A DNA stretch of 64,000 nucleotides from Candidatus Magasanikiibacteriota bacterium (GCA_026396515.1 JAPLWQ010000002.1:9075-73074); one strand, 5' to 3'; positions 23,053 to 42,585 are shown, counted from the first letter of the stretch. The notes: generated by a model from the sequence alone, not told the origin. Numbers and translations are program-made.

Positions 23053-24195
23053 TTATAACTTTATGAACTTTATAAACTCTTCGTAACTATTTTTAAAATT
23101 AATCTCCTTACTCCATTCCCAGGCATTAATTCTTAGACTCTTATATTTTTCTTCATCACTTAACAAATTAACTATATTAACCGCTAAATCTTCTGGGGTA
23201 TTTTCCTTGCAGATTAGTCCTGTTTCGTTATTCATGACTGCATCGCGCAGACCATCAACGTTATAAACAATGGCCGGCGTACCCTGACTATTTGCTTCTG
23301 TGACAACTAATCCCCAACCCTCTTTAACCGAAGTAACTGCGATTAGATGTGATTTTTGCAATAATTCAATTTTCTTTTCTTTACTTACTTTACCAAGGTA
23401 TTCCATGGAATCTGCAAAGGCACTGACCTTCATCATCTTCAATACCTTAGCTCCATAGGTACCCTCGCTAGAGCCGGCGATAATCAGTCGCAAGTCAGGC
23501 ATCACTGCTTTTGCAATTTCAAAGGCCTTAATGATATGATCCGTTCTTTTCATGGCCTTAATTGCCCCGAGGCTTAATATTGTCGGGTCTTTATACTTTA
23601 TAACTTCATAACTTTCTAACTCTTTAACTGGCTCAATCTCAATGCCTTCGCTGATTATTTTTATGTTTTCATCTTTAAAGCCATATTTCAATAAATCTTT
23701 TTTGGTGCTGGCGGAAACGGTAATAACTTTTCTGTCAGAGAGTAACCATAGATAGACCGGCTCCAACAGATATCCAAGTAAACTAAGCGGGAAGAACATC
23801 TGATAAAACCATATTTCTCGACAGAGTTGGTGGATAAAGAGAATATTTTTTACCTCACCCCGACCCTCTCCTTGCAAAGGAGAGGGGGAACAAACATAAA
23901 ACTTCGCAAAGAATGGGATTGTATTTACTTCGTCAATTACCAAATCCGGCCAACCGACTAAATTTTTTTTGTAGTATTTATAGGCCCGCCAATAAACTGT
24001 CCATTTATTGCCCAGTCGTATGACTTTGTACCCATCGATTATTTCTTCGTTTAAAGCCCCCTGAAAGCCCGCCACGAGTAGTATCAGCTCATTACCGTCT
24101 TCTACCAGCCTTTTTGCCAAAGATTCGTTGACTAACTCCGCACCGCCGGCTAACGGATTTTTCCTGTCTTTCCATGTTAGCCATAGGATTTTCAT
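23053..24195 (-). CDS. family 4 (GT-B) glycosyltransferase carrying an in-frame palindromic-element insertion
   Basis: 380 aa. C-terminal GT4 signature (KEGWGLVVTEANSQGTPAIVYNVDGLRDAV). N-domain contains an atypical 14-aa segment CSPSPLQGEGRGEV encoded by a CCTCACCCCGACCCTCTCCTTGCAAAGGAGAGGGGG element at about 23853-23888. Confidence 0.7.
   Translation of the reverse strand: MKILWLTWKDRKNPLAGGAELVNESLAKRLVEDGNELILLVAGFQGALNEEIIDGYKVIRLGNKWTVYWRAYKYYKKNLVGWPDLVIDEVNTIPFFAKFYVCSPSPLQGEGRGEVKNILFIHQLCREIWFYQMFFPLSLLGYLLEPVYLWLLSDRKVITVSASTKKDLLKYGFKDENIKIISEGIEIEPVKELESYEVIKYKDPTILSLGAIKAMKRTDHIIKAFEIAKAVMPDLRLIIAGSSEGTYGAKVLKMMKVSAFADSMEYLGKVSKEKKIELLQKSHLIAVTSVKEGWGLVVTEANSQGTPAIVYNVDGLRDAVMNNETGLICKENTPEDLAVNIVNLLSDEEKYKSLRINAWEWSKEINFKNSYEEFIKFIKL
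23853..23888. repeat. palindromic element copy (CCCTCTCCTT-GCA-AAGGAGAGGG) inside the GT4 CDS
   Basis: Perfect 10-bp inverted repeat flanked by CCTCACCCCGA. Same element family as the copies at 31581-31883, 42496-42585, 36678-36711 and 37268-37301. Confidence 0.65.
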
Positions 24196-25151
24196 ATCAT
24201 TTGGTTAAAATTACTCTTCCTGATAACATAAGTCGGACGTTTTAAGACTTCATCTTGGATGTTGGCGATATAGAGGGCGACCAATCCTAAGCAAGAAAGA
24301 ATAATCCCCACTAAAAAAACTAATAAAATAGCTAACTGGGCTGGGCCGGAAAAGCTCATGGCAAAGCTATTATGAACAATGTATCTACCAACAAATAATA
24401 GAAACCCGGCTAAGCCAAACAAGACAATGATAGCTACGCCTAAATATCCGGCCAGCTTCAGCGGGAAAAGGCTATGGTTAACAATGGTGCATAACGCCAA
24501 TTTAACAAGCTTCATTTTGTCATAACAAGCCAAGCCGTTTTTTCGGCCATTCGAATCAAAATTAATATATTCCCGTTTAAAGCCCAACCAATCAATAAGA
24601 CCCCTGGTCATCCGGCCATGTTCCGTAAAGCGACGAAAAGCCAAAACTACTTTTCTATCAAGCAGTCTATAATCAGTGGCATTAGGAGTAATTTTCGTAT
24701 CGCCAATGGTATCCATAATTTTATAAAATAGCAGCGAACCGATTTTTTTTACTATACCCCCTCCTATATTTCTATTGCGCACGCCAATTACTACTTCGGC
24801 TCCGTTTTGCCATTTCTCCATAAAATTAGGCACCAATTCAACCGGATGTTGTAAATCGGCATCAATCATAATAACCGCATCTCCCCCCGCCGCATCAAGT
24901 CCCGCGGAAAGAGCAAGCTCCTTACCAAAATTGCGCGAAAATTGAATAAATTTGACATGACTATTTTGATTAGCAAAATTCTCTAAAACTACTGCGCTAT
25001 TATCCTGGCTCCCATCATCAACGAAAATAATTTCGTAATCGTAATTATCTAATAAACCATTTAACGTCTTTAGCAGTCCAGCATAAATCAAGGGGATATT
25101 TTCCTCTTCATTAAAAACCGGAATAACTATAGAAATTAATTTTTTGGACAT
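24192..25151 (-). CDS. polyprenyl-phosphate glycosyltransferase (GtrB/ArnC-like GT2 with C-terminal TM helices)
   Basis: LISIVIPVFNEEENIP ... YEIIFVDDGSQDNS ... IMIDADLQHP, plus two C-terminal TM helices. Start placed at MSKKLISIV; the track's N-terminal extension to 25235 overlaps the upstream gene by ~100 nt. Confidence 0.7.
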   Translation of the reverse strand: MSKKLISIVIPVFNEEENIPLIYAGLLKTLNGLLDNYDYEIIFVDDGSQDNSAVVLENFANQNSHVKFIQFSRNFGKELALSAGLDAAGGDAVIMIDADLQHPVELVPNFMEKWQNGAEVVIGVRNRNIGGGIVKKIGSLLFYKIMDTIGDTKITPNATDYRLLDRKVVLAFRRFTEHGRMTRGLIDWLGFKREYINFDSNGRKNGLACYDKMKLVKLALCTIVNHSLFPLKLAGYLGVAIIVLFGLAGFLLFVGRYIVHNSFAMSFSGPAQLAILLVFLVGIILSCLGLVALYIANIQDEVLKRPTYVIRKSNFNQMI

Positions 25152-26476
25152 AAATAATATATCCTGATAAAGTAAAAAATCAGCAGGAACAGCGCAAGTA
25201 GCATCGACCCGTTCATTATCCAAATAATTTGCCATAAACTAGTATGGAAAATGTATATAAAAACTATTTGCAATAGAGACCCAATACCAACTAAATATGC
25301 GCCCATGGCTTTTCCCACGGAAAGAAAATAGTTTGCCAGCAAGGCTACTAAGGAATACAAAAACATTGATAAACCAAACCAGCCCAGATATTTGCTAATC
25401 GCCAGGAATTTGCCACCGATTAGAATATTAATTATCAGATCAGGGATTATGAAATAAAAAATGACAATGCCCAGACCTATCAGGGCGGTTAAGCAAATGG
25501 CTTTTTTAAGGATTTTCGCCGGGTGTTTTAAACTGCTGTGCGCATCAGCCGCCATTGGAAACATTACTCCCGCGACCGGCCCGGCCATAAAATATATTAC
25601 ATTGCCGAGCATGGCTAAAGCGCCAAATTCTCCGGCTGTTTGAGCTGAAAAAAAATGCTTAACTAAAATTATATCTACATTGCAAAGCAGGGCAATAAAC
25701 AAAAGGCTAAAAAAAACCGGGAATGAATAGCGCCCAATCTCTTTTACTTGCACTTCCTCCTTTTGCCGTTTAAATAGAAATTTCAAGGGATAAAAATATA
25801 AAAGATAACTAACCAAGGCAGCCAAAGTGATTGCCCCAACCGCCCCATTTATGGCAAAGCCCAGCTTAACAAGCAAAACGGAAAATGCAACTTTAAGCAA
25901 AGCCGAAATTAGAGAAATAACAGATAATTCCTTAAATTTCTGCAGGCCGCGAATAATACCTAAATTTATTGAACTCGGAAAGCTAAATAGAAAAACAATT
26001 CCTAAAATCAATAATGGCCAAACGGAATCCAAATTTATAAACCGGGCAATTTGCCCGCTAAAAATCGCAAATAATGCAAAGAATGCGACGGCGGCGACTG
26101 AAGTTTTCTTGGTTAATATTAAAAATAGGGAATAGATTTTATTCGGCTGATTCTTTGCTTTAAAATCGGCGGTATATTTTACTAAAACCGTTGCTAAAGT
26201 TGCGGTTGGAATAGCGGTGACGGTAAAAATTGCCAACAAAGTTTGCAGTTCGCCATATACCGCTACCGTTAACATTCTGGCCATTAAAAATTGATAAAGA
26301 TAATTGACCGCCCCAACCGCCAGAGAACCACATAATAAAATCACAATATTAGACAGAAATCTATCTTGCCTGATCCTATCCAGGGATGTTCTTACGATGC
26401 GGCTGATCATGGAACTACTTAATCTAAAAGTAAAACCCAAACGTGATATGTTTGCGCGTCTAATACTTCTGTACAT
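25136..26476 (-). CDS. polysaccharide-biosynthesis flippase (Wzx/MOP superfamily)
   Basis: 446 aa, about 12-14 TM helices, MOP-flippase architecture. Two upstream-motif copies lie 5' of it. Confidence 0.6.
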   Translation of the reverse strand: MYRSIRRANISRLGFTFRLSSSMISRIVRTSLDRIRQDRFLSNIVILLCGSLAVGAVNYLYQFLMARMLTVAVYGELQTLLAIFTVTAIPTATLATVLVKYTADFKAKNQPNKIYSLFLILTKKTSVAAVAFFALFAIFSGQIARFINLDSVWPLLILGIVFLFSFPSSINLGIIRGLQKFKELSVISLISALLKVAFSVLLVKLGFAINGAVGAITLAALVSYLLYFYPLKFLFKRQKEEVQVKEIGRYSFPVFFSLLFIALLCNVDIILVKHFFSAQTAGEFGALAMLGNVIYFMAGPVAGVMFPMAADAHSSLKHPAKILKKAICLTALIGLGIVIFYFIIPDLIINILIGGKFLAISKYLGWFGLSMFLYSLVALLANYFLSVGKAMGAYLVGIGSLLQIVFIYIFHTSLWQIIWIMNGSMLLALFLLIFYFIRIYYLCPKN

Positions 26477-26495
26477 TATTTAGGTAATTATAAAA

Positions 26496-41831: not shown

Positions 41832-42044
41832 TCATTTTTCTAAACGCGTTAAGCGCTCCTTTATATCTTTAATATCAATCTCCATCATACGGAGTTGGCC
41901 GGAAAGTTCAAGATGATTTTGGTCAACTTTTTGCTCGAGACGATCAAAACGCCCGTCAATTTTCTCAAAGCGTTCATCAACTTTTTCAGCAAAATTATTA
42001 ATCGCCTCAAGGATATCCCCTGTTGTCGGTTCGTTATTTATCAT
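41832..42044 (-). CDS. small coiled-coil protein (ORF continues in-frame past a TGA for 33 more codons)
   Basis: 70-aa ORF ends ...ERLTRLEK at TGA. Downstream in the same frame: TIEDADATVKDVLDLRRRVEALESKIRELQPA then TAA at about 41733. Confidence 0.4.
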   Translation of the reverse strand: MINNEPTTGDILEAINNFAEKVDERFEKIDGRFDRLEQKVDQNHLELSGQLRMMEIDIKDIKERLTRLEK

Positions 42045-42495
42045 AAAAAAGTGTTTAATTTATTTCACTATTATACACTCACTTTGAAATGCCGGTCAAA
42101 TTCATCACCCCCTTCCTCTACCCGGTAGAGCTCTTCAGAGATTCTGCCGGGCTTGACAATTCCGTCAATTTGTGCTAATATGACTTGTTTAGTGCCTGAA
42201 AGTGGCCTAAAATAAATAATGAAAAATGTCCTTTACAAAAGTGCTAATAATAGCGAAAACGCTGTTTTTTAGCCAATAATGGCAGGATAAATAGATAGCC
42301 CAGAAATTTGGATATATTGAAAGATAATAGAGTAATTTTGACACGCTTGTAGCGAAAGAAAATCTTAAATTGATTCCCACAGAATATATATTTCTGACCA
42401 ATGTCAGAAGGGGAAGAAAAAGTAAATACATCCAAATTCCTGGGCTATAGGCCGGGAGGCCCCGAAAGGGGTAAGAACGGAAAAATTTTAGGGTT

Positions 42496-42585
42496 TCCCT
42501 CTTTTACAAAGAGAGGGATTAAGGGAGAGTCAACAATAATGCTGACTCCACCCCCAGCCCTCCTCTTAGTAAGAGGAGGGAGGCG
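42496..42585. repeat. palindromic element pair (CCCTCTTTTACAAAGAGAGGG ... CCCTCCTCTTAGTAAGAGGAGGG) 5' of the D-rich lipoprotein gene
   Basis: Same two hairpin types as the 31581-31883 array, one unit. Followed by SD GGGAGG and the ATG at 42666. Confidence 0.65.

What the first reader, a model, noticed from the sequence alone, without database searches (positions are those of the whole stretch)
23853..42585. RPE-like GC-rich palindromic element family dispersed in intergenic DNA and in-frame inside protein-coding genes
A 35-45-nt element has the form CCTCACCCCAACC + CCCTCTCCTT-N3-AAGGAGAGGG. Arm variants are CCCTCCTCTT/AAGAGGAGGG and CCCCTCTCTT-ACA-AAGAGAGGGG. It occurs at these sites:
- a tandem array at 31581-31883;
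- 42496-42585, as the upstream region of a high-GC gene;
- inside the GT4 gene (about 23853-23888), adding 14 aa (CSPSPLQGEGRGEV) without breaking the frame;
- twice, inverted, in the Pro-rich T4SS-operon ORF (about 36678-36711 and 37268-37301), encoding LPHP(N/S)PLLSK(E/D)RE(V/T)SAPP within a larger ~90-nt duplicated block.

In-frame insertion of selfish palindromic repeats into ORFs is known for Rickettsia palindromic elements (Ogata et al., 2000). Seeing the same behaviour here is unusual.

The arms are SD/anti-SD-like (AAGGAG / CTCCTT).
Basis: partly seen in the sequence, partly recalled or inferred. Interest (0 to 1): 0.8.

Follow-up and report, generated by a model that had tools for sequence, protein, structure and literature searches.

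The report
Triplex-forming BoxC repeats inside CPR genes
The repeated GC-rich hairpin belongs to a known family found in many bacterial phyla, the BoxC/PIT "intrastrand triplex motif" repeats first described in E. coli, and here, in a candidate-phyla-radiation (CPR) bacterium, copies sit in frame inside protein-coding genes as well as between genes.

Summary
The window holds 11 copies; 20 composition-preserving shuffles gave none.

The element is more than a hairpin. Each copy has three parts:
- a pyrimidine arm;
- a complementary purine arm;
- a third G-rich arm that mirrors the purine arm.

This is the architecture of the BoxC / PIT / TM_ECO intrastrand-triplex repeat of E. coli (Holder et al. 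2015). The copy in the family-4 glycosyltransferase (GT4) gene is 88-89.5% identical to intergenic copies in 4170 of 5426 E. coli genomes. Four arm variants in the window co-vary across all three arms.

The host is a Candidatus Magasanikbacteria genome assembled from a metagenome.

- **GT4 copy:** lineage-specific. 100 of 120 orthologues have no insert of 4 or more residues there. It lies in a low-confidence loop of the predicted structure.
- **GT4 site as a hot spot:** 20 of 120 orthologues carry inserts of at least five unrelated kinds at this site.
- **Pro-rich ORF:** it holds one old, decaying copy shared with relatives, plus one newer copy made by duplication within the gene.
- **Array at 31.5 kb:** it fills a site that is empty in a syntenic relative.
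- **Other genomes:** the same element sits in frame in IF-2, LeuRS, UvrA, UvrC and other housekeeping genes.

Verdict: a known family in a new host, behaving in a way not reported for it. How it spreads is unknown.

The parts
23853..23886 (-). Triplex motif (TM) copy inside the GT4 gene (23053-24195, minus strand). On the coding strand it reads CCCTCTCC-TTTGCAA-GGAGAGGG-TCG-GGGTGAGG and is translated as (C)SPSPLQGEGRGEV.
   Evidence: It is absent from 100 of 120 orthologues. It is 88-89.5% identical to E. coli intergenic copies. In the AlphaFold2 model it lies in a coil between helix 97-101 and strand 116-121, the lowest-pLDDT block of the protein.
31551..31903 (.). Intergenic array of TMs between two convergent genes: ORF 29982-31571 (+) and the ComF-like gene 31907-32668 (-).
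- Orphan third arm ACCTCACCC at 31551-31559, inside the new 3' end of the ORF.
- Three complete 'A' copies with the G-rich strand on minus (31583-31616, 31651-31684, 31737-31770).
- Three 'B' copies with the G-rich strand on plus (31696-31729, 31782-31815, 31843-31876).
- One truncated A (31817-31842).
- One degenerate hairpin (31884-31903).
   Evidence: In the syntenic relative L145 the two orthologous genes overlap by 8 nt, which is an empty site. In the window both C-termini are altered.
31583..31616 (-). TM copy A1, arm variant GAGGAGGG / third arm GGGTGGAG.
   Evidence: 0 Watson-Crick and 0 Hoogsteen mismatches.
31651..31684 (-). TM copy A2, arm variant GGAGAGGG / third arm GGGTGAGG.
   Evidence: DNA fold -11 to -15 kcal/mol, z -4 to -5.4.
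31696..31729 (+). TM copy B1: CCCCTCTC-TTACAAA-GAGAGGGG-TTA-GGGGAGAG.
31737..31770 (-). TM copy A3, variant GAGGAGGG / GGGTGGAG.
31782..31815 (+). TM copy B2, with one mismatch in the pyrimidine arm.
31843..31876 (+). TM copy B3.
36677..36710 (+). Older, decaying TM copy inside the Pro-rich ORF of the type IV secretion (T4SS) operon (36309-37505, minus strand). The C-rich strand is the coding strand and encodes LPHPSPLLSKDRET. The pyrimidine arm has one transversion (CCCTATCC).
   Evidence: The position is orthologous in relatives, with progressively decayed TM DNA in P0123, P0125 and P0122.
37268..37301 (+). Intact TM copy inside the same ORF, encoding LPHPNPLLSKEREV. It is absent from orthologues.
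36651..36737 (.). 87-nt block (TM plus about 25 nt of flank on each side). It is the likely source of the intragenic duplication.
   Evidence: (family D7).
37242..37328 (.). Second copy of the 87-nt block, 84% identical to the first. It carries flanks of the C-terminal copy into a site that relatives have without the TM.
42496..42529 (+). Intergenic TM copy B4, with the triple-compensated variant TCCCTCTT / GAGAGGGA / AGGGAGAG. It lies about 140 nt upstream of the acidic-repeat ORF 42666-43229.
42546..42580 (-). Intergenic TM copy A5 (GAGGAGGG / GGGTGGAG, second loop of 4 nt). With B4 it forms an inverted pair, the same layout as the E. coli pair downstream of alx.

Best explanation
The element is a member of the BoxC / PIT / 'TM' family of G/C-rich intrastrand-triplex repeats, which occurs across many bacterial phyla.

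**Anatomy (shown).** Each unit is about 34 nt. It has a pyrimidine arm, a 3-nt loop flanked by TT/AA, a complementary purine arm, a 3-4 nt second loop, and a third G-rich arm. The third arm runs antiparallel to the purine arm and mirrors it with G opposite G and A or T opposite A. These are the rules of a purine-motif (class II) intramolecular triplex.

**Insertions (shown).**
- An amplified array lies between two convergent genes.
- An inverted pair lies in another intergenic spacer.
- One copy lies in a surface loop of a GT4 glycosyltransferase.
- An old copy in a Pro-rich T4SS-operon protein was later duplicated within that gene together with its flanks.

**Mechanism (inferred).**
- The unit behaves as non-coding, self-propagating or passively copied DNA. 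What is preserved is the ability of the G-rich single strand to fold. I found no evidence of a protein or RNA function.
- Folding in transiently single-stranded DNA stalls replication. That promotes slippage, template switching and gene conversion. These processes would account for the 86/61-nt array and the intragenic duplication.
- How a copy reaches a new locus is not known.
- In-gene copies are the survivors of purifying selection. Four of the six reading frames are stop-free, and only in-frame insertions in tolerant loops persist. They are then translated as short Pro/Gly/charged peptides and decay slowly.
For: **Architecture and statistics**
- 10 complete three-arm units, against 0 in 20 shuffles.
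- Four different arm sequences in this window each have 0 mismatches in the third arm: GGAGAGGG/GGGTGAGG, GAGGAGGG/GGGTGGAG, GAGAGGGG/GGGGAGAG, GAGAGGGA/AGGGAGAG.

**Co-variation elsewhere**
- In 131 hits from other genomes, the base just outside my search pattern was T in all 45 copies whose stem has T/A. It was C in all 86 copies whose stem has C at that position.
- Among 162 further pyrimidine/purine hairpins, 53 have a perfect third arm against 3.8 expected by permutation. These involve 20 distinct arm sequences.

**Family identity**
- Holder et al. 2015 (PMC4666352) give the pattern CCCTCNCCC-N3-6-GGGNGAGGG-N3-GGGNGAGGG.
- The GT4 copy is 88-89.5% identical to copies in 4170 of 5426 E. 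coli genomes.
- E. coli has the same inverted-pair layout.

**Insertion status**
- GT4.
- Array, filled versus empty site.
- Pro-rich ORF.

**Generality**
- In-frame copies occur in IF-2, LeuRS, PheT, UvrA, UvrC, peptide deformylase, DHFR, ATP synthase gamma, an M16 peptidase and a radical-SAM protein.
Against: - Triplex folding was not detected in vivo in E. coli by DMS footprinting, and no function was found (Holder 2015).
- ViennaRNA cannot model triplexes, so folding here is inferred from co-variation only.
- The co-variation counts are not phylogenetically independent.
- No transposase, target-site duplication or other mobility signature was found, so the step that creates a new copy is unexplained.
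- Sharing of the GT4 site by unrelated hairpin repeats could reflect a targeting mechanism that the selection-filter model does not include.
- Translation of the in-gene copies is inferred from intact reading frames, not observed.
Confidence: 0.68

Rival explanations
1. A lineage-specific family of selfish palindromic elements comparable to Rickettsia palindromic elements. That is, a MITE-like mobile hairpin moved by a transposase and unrelated to known families.
For: - The copies are dispersed, palindromic, and both intergenic and in frame in genes.
- In cyanobacteria the core is embedded in longer units with terminal inverted repeats.
Against: - The sequence is 88-89.5% identical to E. coli BoxC/TM copies.
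- It occurs in many phyla.
- The units are 34-45 nt, against about 150 bp for RPE.
- No target-site duplication is visible at solo copies.
- Holder et al. found no link to transposons, phages or plasmids.
- Only 4 hits were found in 2.9 million viral contigs.
Confidence: 0.12
2. A regulatory element: a transcription terminator or attenuator, an mRNA-stabilising hairpin, or a Shine-Dalgarno/anti-Shine-Dalgarno switch.
For: - The array lies between convergent genes, and a pair lies upstream of an ORF.
- The hairpins are stable.
- The purine arms contain GGAG-like strings.
Against: - None of the complete TM hairpins is followed by a T run. The single terminator-like match on the array's plus strand is a different stem, GGGAGGCGACGCTTCCC at 31768-31784, in the spacer between copies A3 and B2.
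- PIT elements showed no promoter or terminator activity (Holder 2015 citing Maher).
- The syntenic relative manages with overlapping gene ends and no element.
- Copies inside IF-2, LeuRS and other genes cannot act as terminators.
- A hairpin-only function does not explain the third-arm co-variation.
Confidence: 0.08
3. The in-gene segments are ancestral protein sequence, or functional peptide modules, that merely resemble the repeat.
For: - The C-terminal segment of the Pro-rich protein is shared by relatives.
- One distant GT4 orthologue (P0049) has a near-identical peptide at the same site.
Against: - 100 of 120 GT4 orthologues have no insert of 4 or more residues at the site, including the closest one.
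- The DNA under each peptide is a complete three-arm motif, and the same motif occurs in non-coding DNA.
- Different genes use different reading frames and strands of the same DNA.
- In the AlphaFold2 model the insert is a low-confidence coil.
Confidence: 0.04
4. The conserved feature is a G-quadruplex or i-motif, or only a long palindrome, and not a triplex.
For: - The C-type variant reads GGGGAGGGTTGGGGTGGGG, four G-tracts.
- Complete 22-bp palindromes exist (L010, L026, L053, L101, L112).
Against: - The positions of the A residues co-vary in mirror symmetry between the purine arm and the third arm. Neither a quadruplex nor a hairpin requires this.
- The window's variants have only GG tracts in places.
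- NMR excluded a quadruplex for TM_ECO.
Confidence: 0.08

Closest known systems
BoxC / PIT (potential intrastrand triplex) / TM_ECO repeats of E. coli and other bacteria (Bergler/Bachellier 1990s and Hoyne & Maher 2000, as cited in Holder et al. 2015; Holder et al. 2015, NAR, PMC4666352)
   Same: - The same three-arm order and purine-motif pairing rules.
- 88-89.5% nucleotide identity to E. coli copies.
- Multi-copy and dispersed.
- Frequent inverted pairs.
- Degenerate copies.
- Association with local rearrangement.
- No linked mobility gene.
   Different: - The host is a CPR bacterium with a small genome.
- The stem ends in TT/AA where TM_ECO has C/G, so the published regular expression is missed by one base per arm.
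- Units are amplified into an 86/61-nt tandem array.
- Copies lie in frame inside protein-coding genes, whereas TM_ECO is reported as always intergenic.
Rickettsia palindromic elements (RPE)
   Same: Palindromic repeats that insert in frame into unrelated, often essential, genes and are tolerated as extra peptide segments.
   Different: - RPEs are about 150 bp, fall into ten families, and are confined to Rickettsia and its relatives.
- No triplex architecture is described for them.
- No sequence relationship was tested here.
REP/BIME elements and their RAYT transposases
   Same: Short GC-rich hairpin repeats, often in inverted pairs and clusters.
   Different: - REPs carry a GTAG or CGTC tag at one end (PMC3733652), and a cognate RAYT gene is known for them.
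- The elements here have neither tag, and no RAYT was seen.
MITEs, including the cyanobacterial and Coxiella MITEs that fuse in frame with ORFs
   Same: Small, non-autonomous and multi-copy; sometimes translated as part of host proteins.
   Different: - No terminal inverted repeats distinct from the hairpin itself.
- No target-site duplication.
- A much smaller unit.
- The sequence is conserved across phyla.

Membership tests
BoxC / PIT / TM_ECO intrastrand-triplex repeat | Order of parts on one strand: pyrimidine arm, loop, complementary purine arm, short loop, then a third G-rich arm antiparallel to the purine arm with G*G-C and A/T*A-T triplets (class II). | tested here: met
   10 copies with 0-1 Watson-Crick mismatches and 0 third-arm mismatches; 0 in shuffles.
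BoxC / PIT / TM_ECO intrastrand-triplex repeat | The published pattern CCCTCNCCC-N3-6-GGGNGAGGG-N3-GGGNGAGGG. | tested here: inconclusive
   Window copies read CCCTCTCC(T)-...-(A)GGAGAGGG-TTG-GGGTGAGG. Eight of the nine positions of each arm fit, and the ninth is T/A where the pattern has C/G. The literal pattern is therefore not matched, but similarity is high (next row).
BoxC / PIT / TM_ECO intrastrand-triplex repeat | Sequence similarity to bona fide E. coli copies. | tested here: met
   88.1-89.5% identity over 38-41 of 43 nt in 4170 of 5426 genomes; the hit is the TM downstream of alx. It is identical in sequence to Table 1 entry 12 of Holder et al..
BoxC / PIT / TM_ECO intrastrand-triplex repeat | Compensated variation that keeps all three arms in register. 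| tested here: met
BoxC / PIT / TM_ECO intrastrand-triplex repeat | The isolated G-rich strand forms a stable triplex (CD, NMR). | not testable with these tools
   Shown for E. coli sequences only.
BoxC / PIT / TM_ECO intrastrand-triplex repeat | Intergenic location. This was reported for E. coli and is descriptive, not defining. | tested here: not met
   3 of 11 window copies are inside ORFs. The same is seen in other genomes.
Rickettsia palindromic elements | Unit of about 100-150 bp belonging to one of the RPE sequence families. | tested here: not met
   Units are 34-45 nt. The RPE length is taken from PMC10969869. Sequence similarity to RPE consensus sequences was not tested.
Rickettsia palindromic elements | In-frame insertion into unrelated host genes. 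| tested here: met
REP / RAYT-associated repeats | A GTAG or CGTC tetranucleotide at one end, and an associated RAYT gene. | tested here: not met
   Copies begin ACCYCACCCC and end GGRGAGGGRG, without such a tag. No RAYT search of the whole genome was possible.
MITE | Terminal inverted repeats flanked by target-site duplications, with a related autonomous IS. | tested here: not met
   No direct repeats flank the solo copies. No IS was seen next to the copies. A whole-genome check was not possible.
Intrinsic terminator | A GC-rich stem followed by a T run. | tested here: not met
   none of the complete TM hairpins in the array is followed by a T run. The one plus-strand match is a different stem, in the spacer at 31768-31784.

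The most novel reading that the evidence does not exclude
Small structured DNA repeats of unrelated sequence are delivered repeatedly to the same few nucleotides of a conserved gene, just 5' of an A-tract in the GT4 gene. They replace one another between close relatives. 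The repeats involved are triplex motifs, the 'VIPAKAGIQ' hairpin, the 'HPVK...FNR' hairpin and others. This would point to a host-encoded pathway, directed by DNA structure and not sequence, that captures folded single strands at particular sites. Through that pathway a cross-phylum triplex repeat would act as a steady source of new peptide loops in essential proteins of CPR bacteria.
Probability: 0.2. Interest if true: 0.8.

Novelty: new member of a known kind. Interest (0 to 1): 0.55.

Why it matters
BoxC/PIT/TM repeats have been known for thirty years with no function and no known way of spreading. They have been described as strictly intergenic in E. coli.

Three results here bear on that:
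- Near-identical copies occur in reduced-genome CPR bacteria.
- They are translated in frame within IF-2, aminoacyl-tRNA synthetases, UvrA/UvrC and a glycosyltransferase.
- Filled and empty sites can be compared between relatives. Such filled/empty pairs are the raw material for working out how the repeats move.

The element is also a source of protein length variation in lineages with few other mobile elements. The three-way compensated variation is comparative evidence that the triplex fold itself is what is preserved. Earlier in-vivo experiments could not show this.

On the practical side, these peptides (PSPLQGEGRGEV, PHPxPLLxKER and similar) are a recurrent source of spurious 'motifs' and of annotation noise in genomes assembled from metagenomes.

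Tried and rejected
- **Rfam:** a scan of the window found only tRNA-Ser, so the element is not a known RNA family.
- **CRISPR-like array:** rejected. There are no unique spacers and the 86/61-nt units are the repeats themselves.
- **Terminator function:** rejected for the TM hairpins, none of which is followed by a T run.
- **Exact type-B string in JGI metagenomes:** 0 hits. A generalised type-B pattern gave 15 loci.
- **Viral carriers:** only 4 hits in the viral contig collection. This gives no support for phage-borne spread.
- **Target-site duplications or a consensus target at solo copies:** none found, apart from a purine-rich base or two before ACC.
- **Close strain variants with an empty GT4 site:** none available. 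The next protein is only 75-77% identical, so the exact insertion junction could not be defined.
- **Exact-protein look-up of the 398-aa Pro-rich ORF:** failed because the deposited gene starts at a later codon.
- **Literature:** searches for CPR/Patescibacteria together with MITE, REP or triplex repeats found nothing relevant.
- **Indexing error:** the first covariation count was mis-indexed and was redone.

Full report

Yes. The core CCCTCTCCTT-N3-AAGGAGAGGG occurs four times, with 0 expected in 100 dinucleotide-preserving shuffles. The 5' extension CCTCACCCCAACCCTC occurs seven times against 0.15 expected. In an exhaustive list of perfect hairpins, nine of those with a 10-bp stem and a 3-nt loop are this all-pyrimidine/all-purine kind.

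Tandem Repeats Finder reports the array with periods of 86 and 61 nt. The GT4 ORF (23053-24195, minus strand) reads through the element as CSPSPLQGEGRGEV. The Pro-rich ORF (36309-37505, minus strand) reads through two copies that lie inside an 87-nt block duplicated at 84% identity. Folded as DNA, the hairpins give -10 to -15 kcal/mol with z-scores of -3 to -5.

**2. What the unit really is**

The conserved stretch 5' of the hairpin is not a spacer. Read on the G-rich strand, every copy has this order:
- a pyrimidine arm (for example CCCTCTCC);
- a TT-N3-AA loop;
- a purine arm (GGAGAGGG);
- a 3-4 nt loop;
- a third arm (GGGTGAGG).

Read backwards, the third arm matches the purine arm with G opposite G and A or T opposite A. 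A finder written for this rule set returns 10 complete units in the window, each with no third-arm mismatch. It returns none in 20 shuffles. The 36677 copy fails only because of one transversion in its pyrimidine arm.

Its third arm is TTA-GGGGAGAG. The 86-nt array unit is therefore an inverted pair of two units.

**3. Co-variation**

The window holds four arm variants: GGAGAGGG/GGGTGAGG, GAGGAGGG/GGGTGGAG, GAGAGGGG/GGGGAGAG and GAGAGGGA/AGGGAGAG. In each, a change in the purine arm is matched in both the pyrimidine arm and the third arm.

I examined 131 hits from other genomes. The base immediately outside my search pattern was T in all 45 copies whose stem has T/A. It was C in all 86 copies whose stem has C at that position. 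There was no discordant case.

I then took 162 further pyrimidine/purine hairpins in the fetched loci, outside the pattern matches. Of these, 53 have a perfect third arm. Only 3.8 are expected when arms are permuted among hairpins, and 20 different arm sequences are involved.

Mirror symmetry of this kind is not produced by hairpin formation, and a G-quadruplex does not need it. It is what a purine-motif intramolecular triplex requires. These counts are not phylogenetically independent, and the fold itself was not measured here.

**4. It is a known family**

A full-text search for the sequence led to Holder et al. 2015 (PMC4666352). That paper describes the 'TM_ECO' motif CCCTCNCCC-N3-6-GGGNGAGGG-N3-GGGNGAGGG. 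The motif was described earlier as BoxC and as PIT elements. The paper reports the following:
- 3610 copies in 262 proteobacterial genomes, and abundant G/C-rich triplex motifs in cyanobacteria;
- a stable triplex by CD and NMR for the isolated strand;
- no triplex detected in vivo by DMS footprinting;
- no promoter or terminator activity;
- always intergenic in E. coli;
- never linked to transposons, phages or plasmids;
- elevated local sequence variability.

The GT4 copy from this window is 88-89.5% identical to chromosomal copies in 4170 of 5426 complete E. coli genomes, all without annotation. The example I read lies downstream of alx and has an inverted partner 25 nt away. That is the same layout as the window's pair at 42496-42580.

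The literal published pattern is missed by one base per arm, because the stem here ends in T/A where the pattern has C/G.

**5. Distribution**

They came from:
- Cyanobacteria (Microcoleus, Nostoc, Chamaesiphon, Tychonema and others);
- CPR lineages (Moran-, Nomura-, Falkow-, Gracili- and Parcubacteria);
- Gammaproteobacteria and Hyphomicrobiales;
- Nitrospirae and Armatimonadetes;
- Melioribacter, Kapaibacterium and Gastranaerophilales.

Only four viral contigs matched. A generalised type-B pattern gave 15 metagenome loci, including the same A+B composite (L133) and the B-then-A arrangement (L135). In Microcoleus and Nostoc the core sits inside longer, lineage-specific units with terminal inverted repeats.

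**6. The host and the GT4 copy**

The GT4 protein is identical to one annotated from a Candidatus Magasanikbacteria metagenome-assembled genome, on a 328,883-bp contig. The same gene, insert included, is also present in a separate assembly of a sequencing run.

Of the 120 best orthologues, most are 364-368 aa against 380 aa here, and 100 have no insert of 4 or more residues at this position. The nearest orthologue (P0003, 80% identical over well-aligned columns) has none. In an AlphaFold2 model (mean pLDDT 90.7) the insert is a coil between helix 97-101 and strand 116-121. It falls in the lowest-confidence block of the protein. The copy is therefore a lineage-specific insertion in a loop.

**7. 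A hot spot**

Twenty of the 120 orthologues carry an insert of 5-51 residues at this same position, and two more (P0028, P0069) carry a short HPVKS remnant. At least five unrelated kinds of insert are seen:
- triplex motifs (P0001, P0049, P0008, P0042);
- a 'VIPAKAGIQ' hairpin;
- an 'HPVK...FNR' hairpin;
- a 51-residue composite;
- others.

At DNA level, all those I fetched are hairpin-forming repeats placed between TTTTAT(G/A)T(T/A) and an A-tract (AAAAGAAAAAAAT or similar). Close relatives carry different occupants. P0042 has a triplex motif and P0038 has the VIPAKAGIQ element, at 85% identity. P0001 has a triplex motif, P0002 has VIPAKAGIQ and P0003 has none.

A second, weaker site near consensus position 183 also collects inserts. 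These include another triplex motif in P0031 and P0038.

Whether this reflects targeting or only tolerance cannot be decided here. The protein database holds only intact ORFs, so out-of-frame insertions would not be seen.

**8. The Pro-rich ORF**

Relatives at 53-57% identity share the C-terminal segment. Their DNA there is recognisably the same motif in progressive decay: ACCTCACCCCAGCGCTCTCCCTGGTAAGGAGAGAGAG in P0123, with more decay in P0125 and P0122. This is an old insertion, now part of the protein.

The N-terminal copy is absent from those relatives. It has the same loop as the C-terminal copy. It also brings with it about 12 nt of left flank and 6 nt of right flank from the C-terminal copy, into a site whose outer flanks were already similar. 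It therefore arose by intragenic duplication or gene conversion, not by a fresh insertion.

**9. The array**

The relative that carries P0122 is syntenic across the whole operon: PrgI, TraC-like, VirB4-like, ComF-like. There, the ComF-like gene and the convergent 522-aa ORF overlap by 8 nt.

In the window the same two genes are separated by 335 nt that consist entirely of triplex motifs and their fragments. Both C-termini are changed...VWKRVNKTSPTTK* against ...VWKKVR*, and ...LARAI* against ...LARTT*. The new end of the ORF runs into an orphan third arm. This is a filled-versus-empty site comparison. The 21-kb relative locus contains no triplex motif at all.

**10. In-frame copies elsewhere**

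In the fetched loci, about 20 copies lie inside long ORFs. Pfam confirms ten of them:
- IF-2;
- LeuRS;
- PheT;
- UvrA and UvrC (both in one Moranbacteria contig);
- peptide deformylase;
- DHFR;
- ATP synthase gamma;
- an M16 peptidase;
- a radical-SAM protein.

Both strands and four reading frames are used, giving peptides such as KPHPSPLLGKERG, TSPQPSPYKGEG, PSPLQGEGWGGV and PPLLNKERVGVRS. By inspection of the sequence, four of the six frames of the unit contain no stop codon.

**11. Mechanism**

What is shown:
- family identity;
- three-arm co-variation;
- insertion status at four loci;
- local amplification;
- duplication with flanks;
- decay;
- in-frame persistence.

What is inferred:
- The G-rich strand folds when it is single-stranded.
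- The fold stalls replication. Polymerase arrest in vitro is reported in the literature.
- Stalling leads to slippage, template switching and gene conversion.
- Selection removes all but in-frame, loop-located copies.

What remains unknown is how a copy reaches a naive site. It is also unknown why unrelated repeats share the GT4 site.

**12. Verdict**

The new points are the CPR host, the in-frame coding copies (TM_ECO was reported as always intergenic) and the hot spot. I found no paper in the held library that links Patescibacteria with such repeats. That library is incomplete, so this is not proof of novelty.

Noticed in passing
window 23853-23890 and loci L121-L125, L149, L150 (GT4 orthologues): One position of the GT4 gene, just 5' of an A-tract, carries inserts in 20 of 120 orthologues. 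At least five unrelated hairpin repeats are involved, and close relatives carry different occupants. A second, weaker site lies near consensus position 183.
   Followed up: partly
window 29538-29622 and 29704-29788; tRNA-Ser at 29770-29861 (-): An 85-nt direct repeat, 99% identical, whose second copy includes the last 19 nt of tRNA-Ser(GCT). The copies are only 166 nt apart. It looks like the scar of an integration or excision at the tRNA gene.
   Followed up: no
window 11129-11270, 15479-15536, 26479-26536, 27556-27600: A second repeat family (AAGCCCAAA...TTGAGCTTC-NAG-AGCTTCT) in the low-GC glycan-synthesis region. At least two copies lie at or immediately upstream of minus-strand gene starts, next to a TATAAT-like box. 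It may be a shared promoter or operator.
   Followed up: no
window 51912-52217: A 165-nt tandem duplication, 1.8 copies at 79% identity, just upstream of the start of the 2783-aa ORF (43461-51812, minus strand).
   Followed up: no
window 42666-43229 (+), with hexamer repeats at 42828-42896: An ORF with a lipoprotein-like N-terminus (...FIPAC) followed by an acidic Asp/Thr/Ser/Gly-rich stretch encoded by GACACC-type repeats. It has no Pfam match. The inverted triplex-motif pair lies 86-170 nt upstream of its start codon.
   Followed up: partly
window 32652-41555 versus L145 6040-15379: The operon (989-aa membrane protein, 371-aa protein, Pro-rich protein, PrgI, TraC-like, VirB4-like ATPase, 198-aa protein, ComF-like) is syntenic with a relative on a 628-kb contig. 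It matches the monoderm-type T4SS described for Patescibacteria.
   Followed up: partly
L083 1798-1960; L082 and L095; L138: Other genomes also hold tandem arrays of the motif (a 41-nt period in L083) or of longer units that contain it. Local amplification is therefore a general habit of the family.
   Followed up: no
Microcoleus/Tychonema loci (e.g. L004, L005, L007) and Nostoc loci (e.g. L016, L019, L033): In cyanobacteria the triplex core is embedded in longer conserved units of about 100 nt, with their own terminal inverted repeats (AATCCTAAATGA...TGATTTAGGATT; CATCTCAATGAGTG...CACTGAGATG). The core may be a module carried by lineage-specific MITE-like elements.
   Followed up: no
P0113 C-terminus; P0101 near consensus position 185: Other repeat-derived peptides appear in GT4 orthologues: VVPAEAGIQ fused to the C-terminus, and EINPVRNSSISNGV at the second site. 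This suggests that several repeat families invade CPR coding sequence.
   Followed up: no
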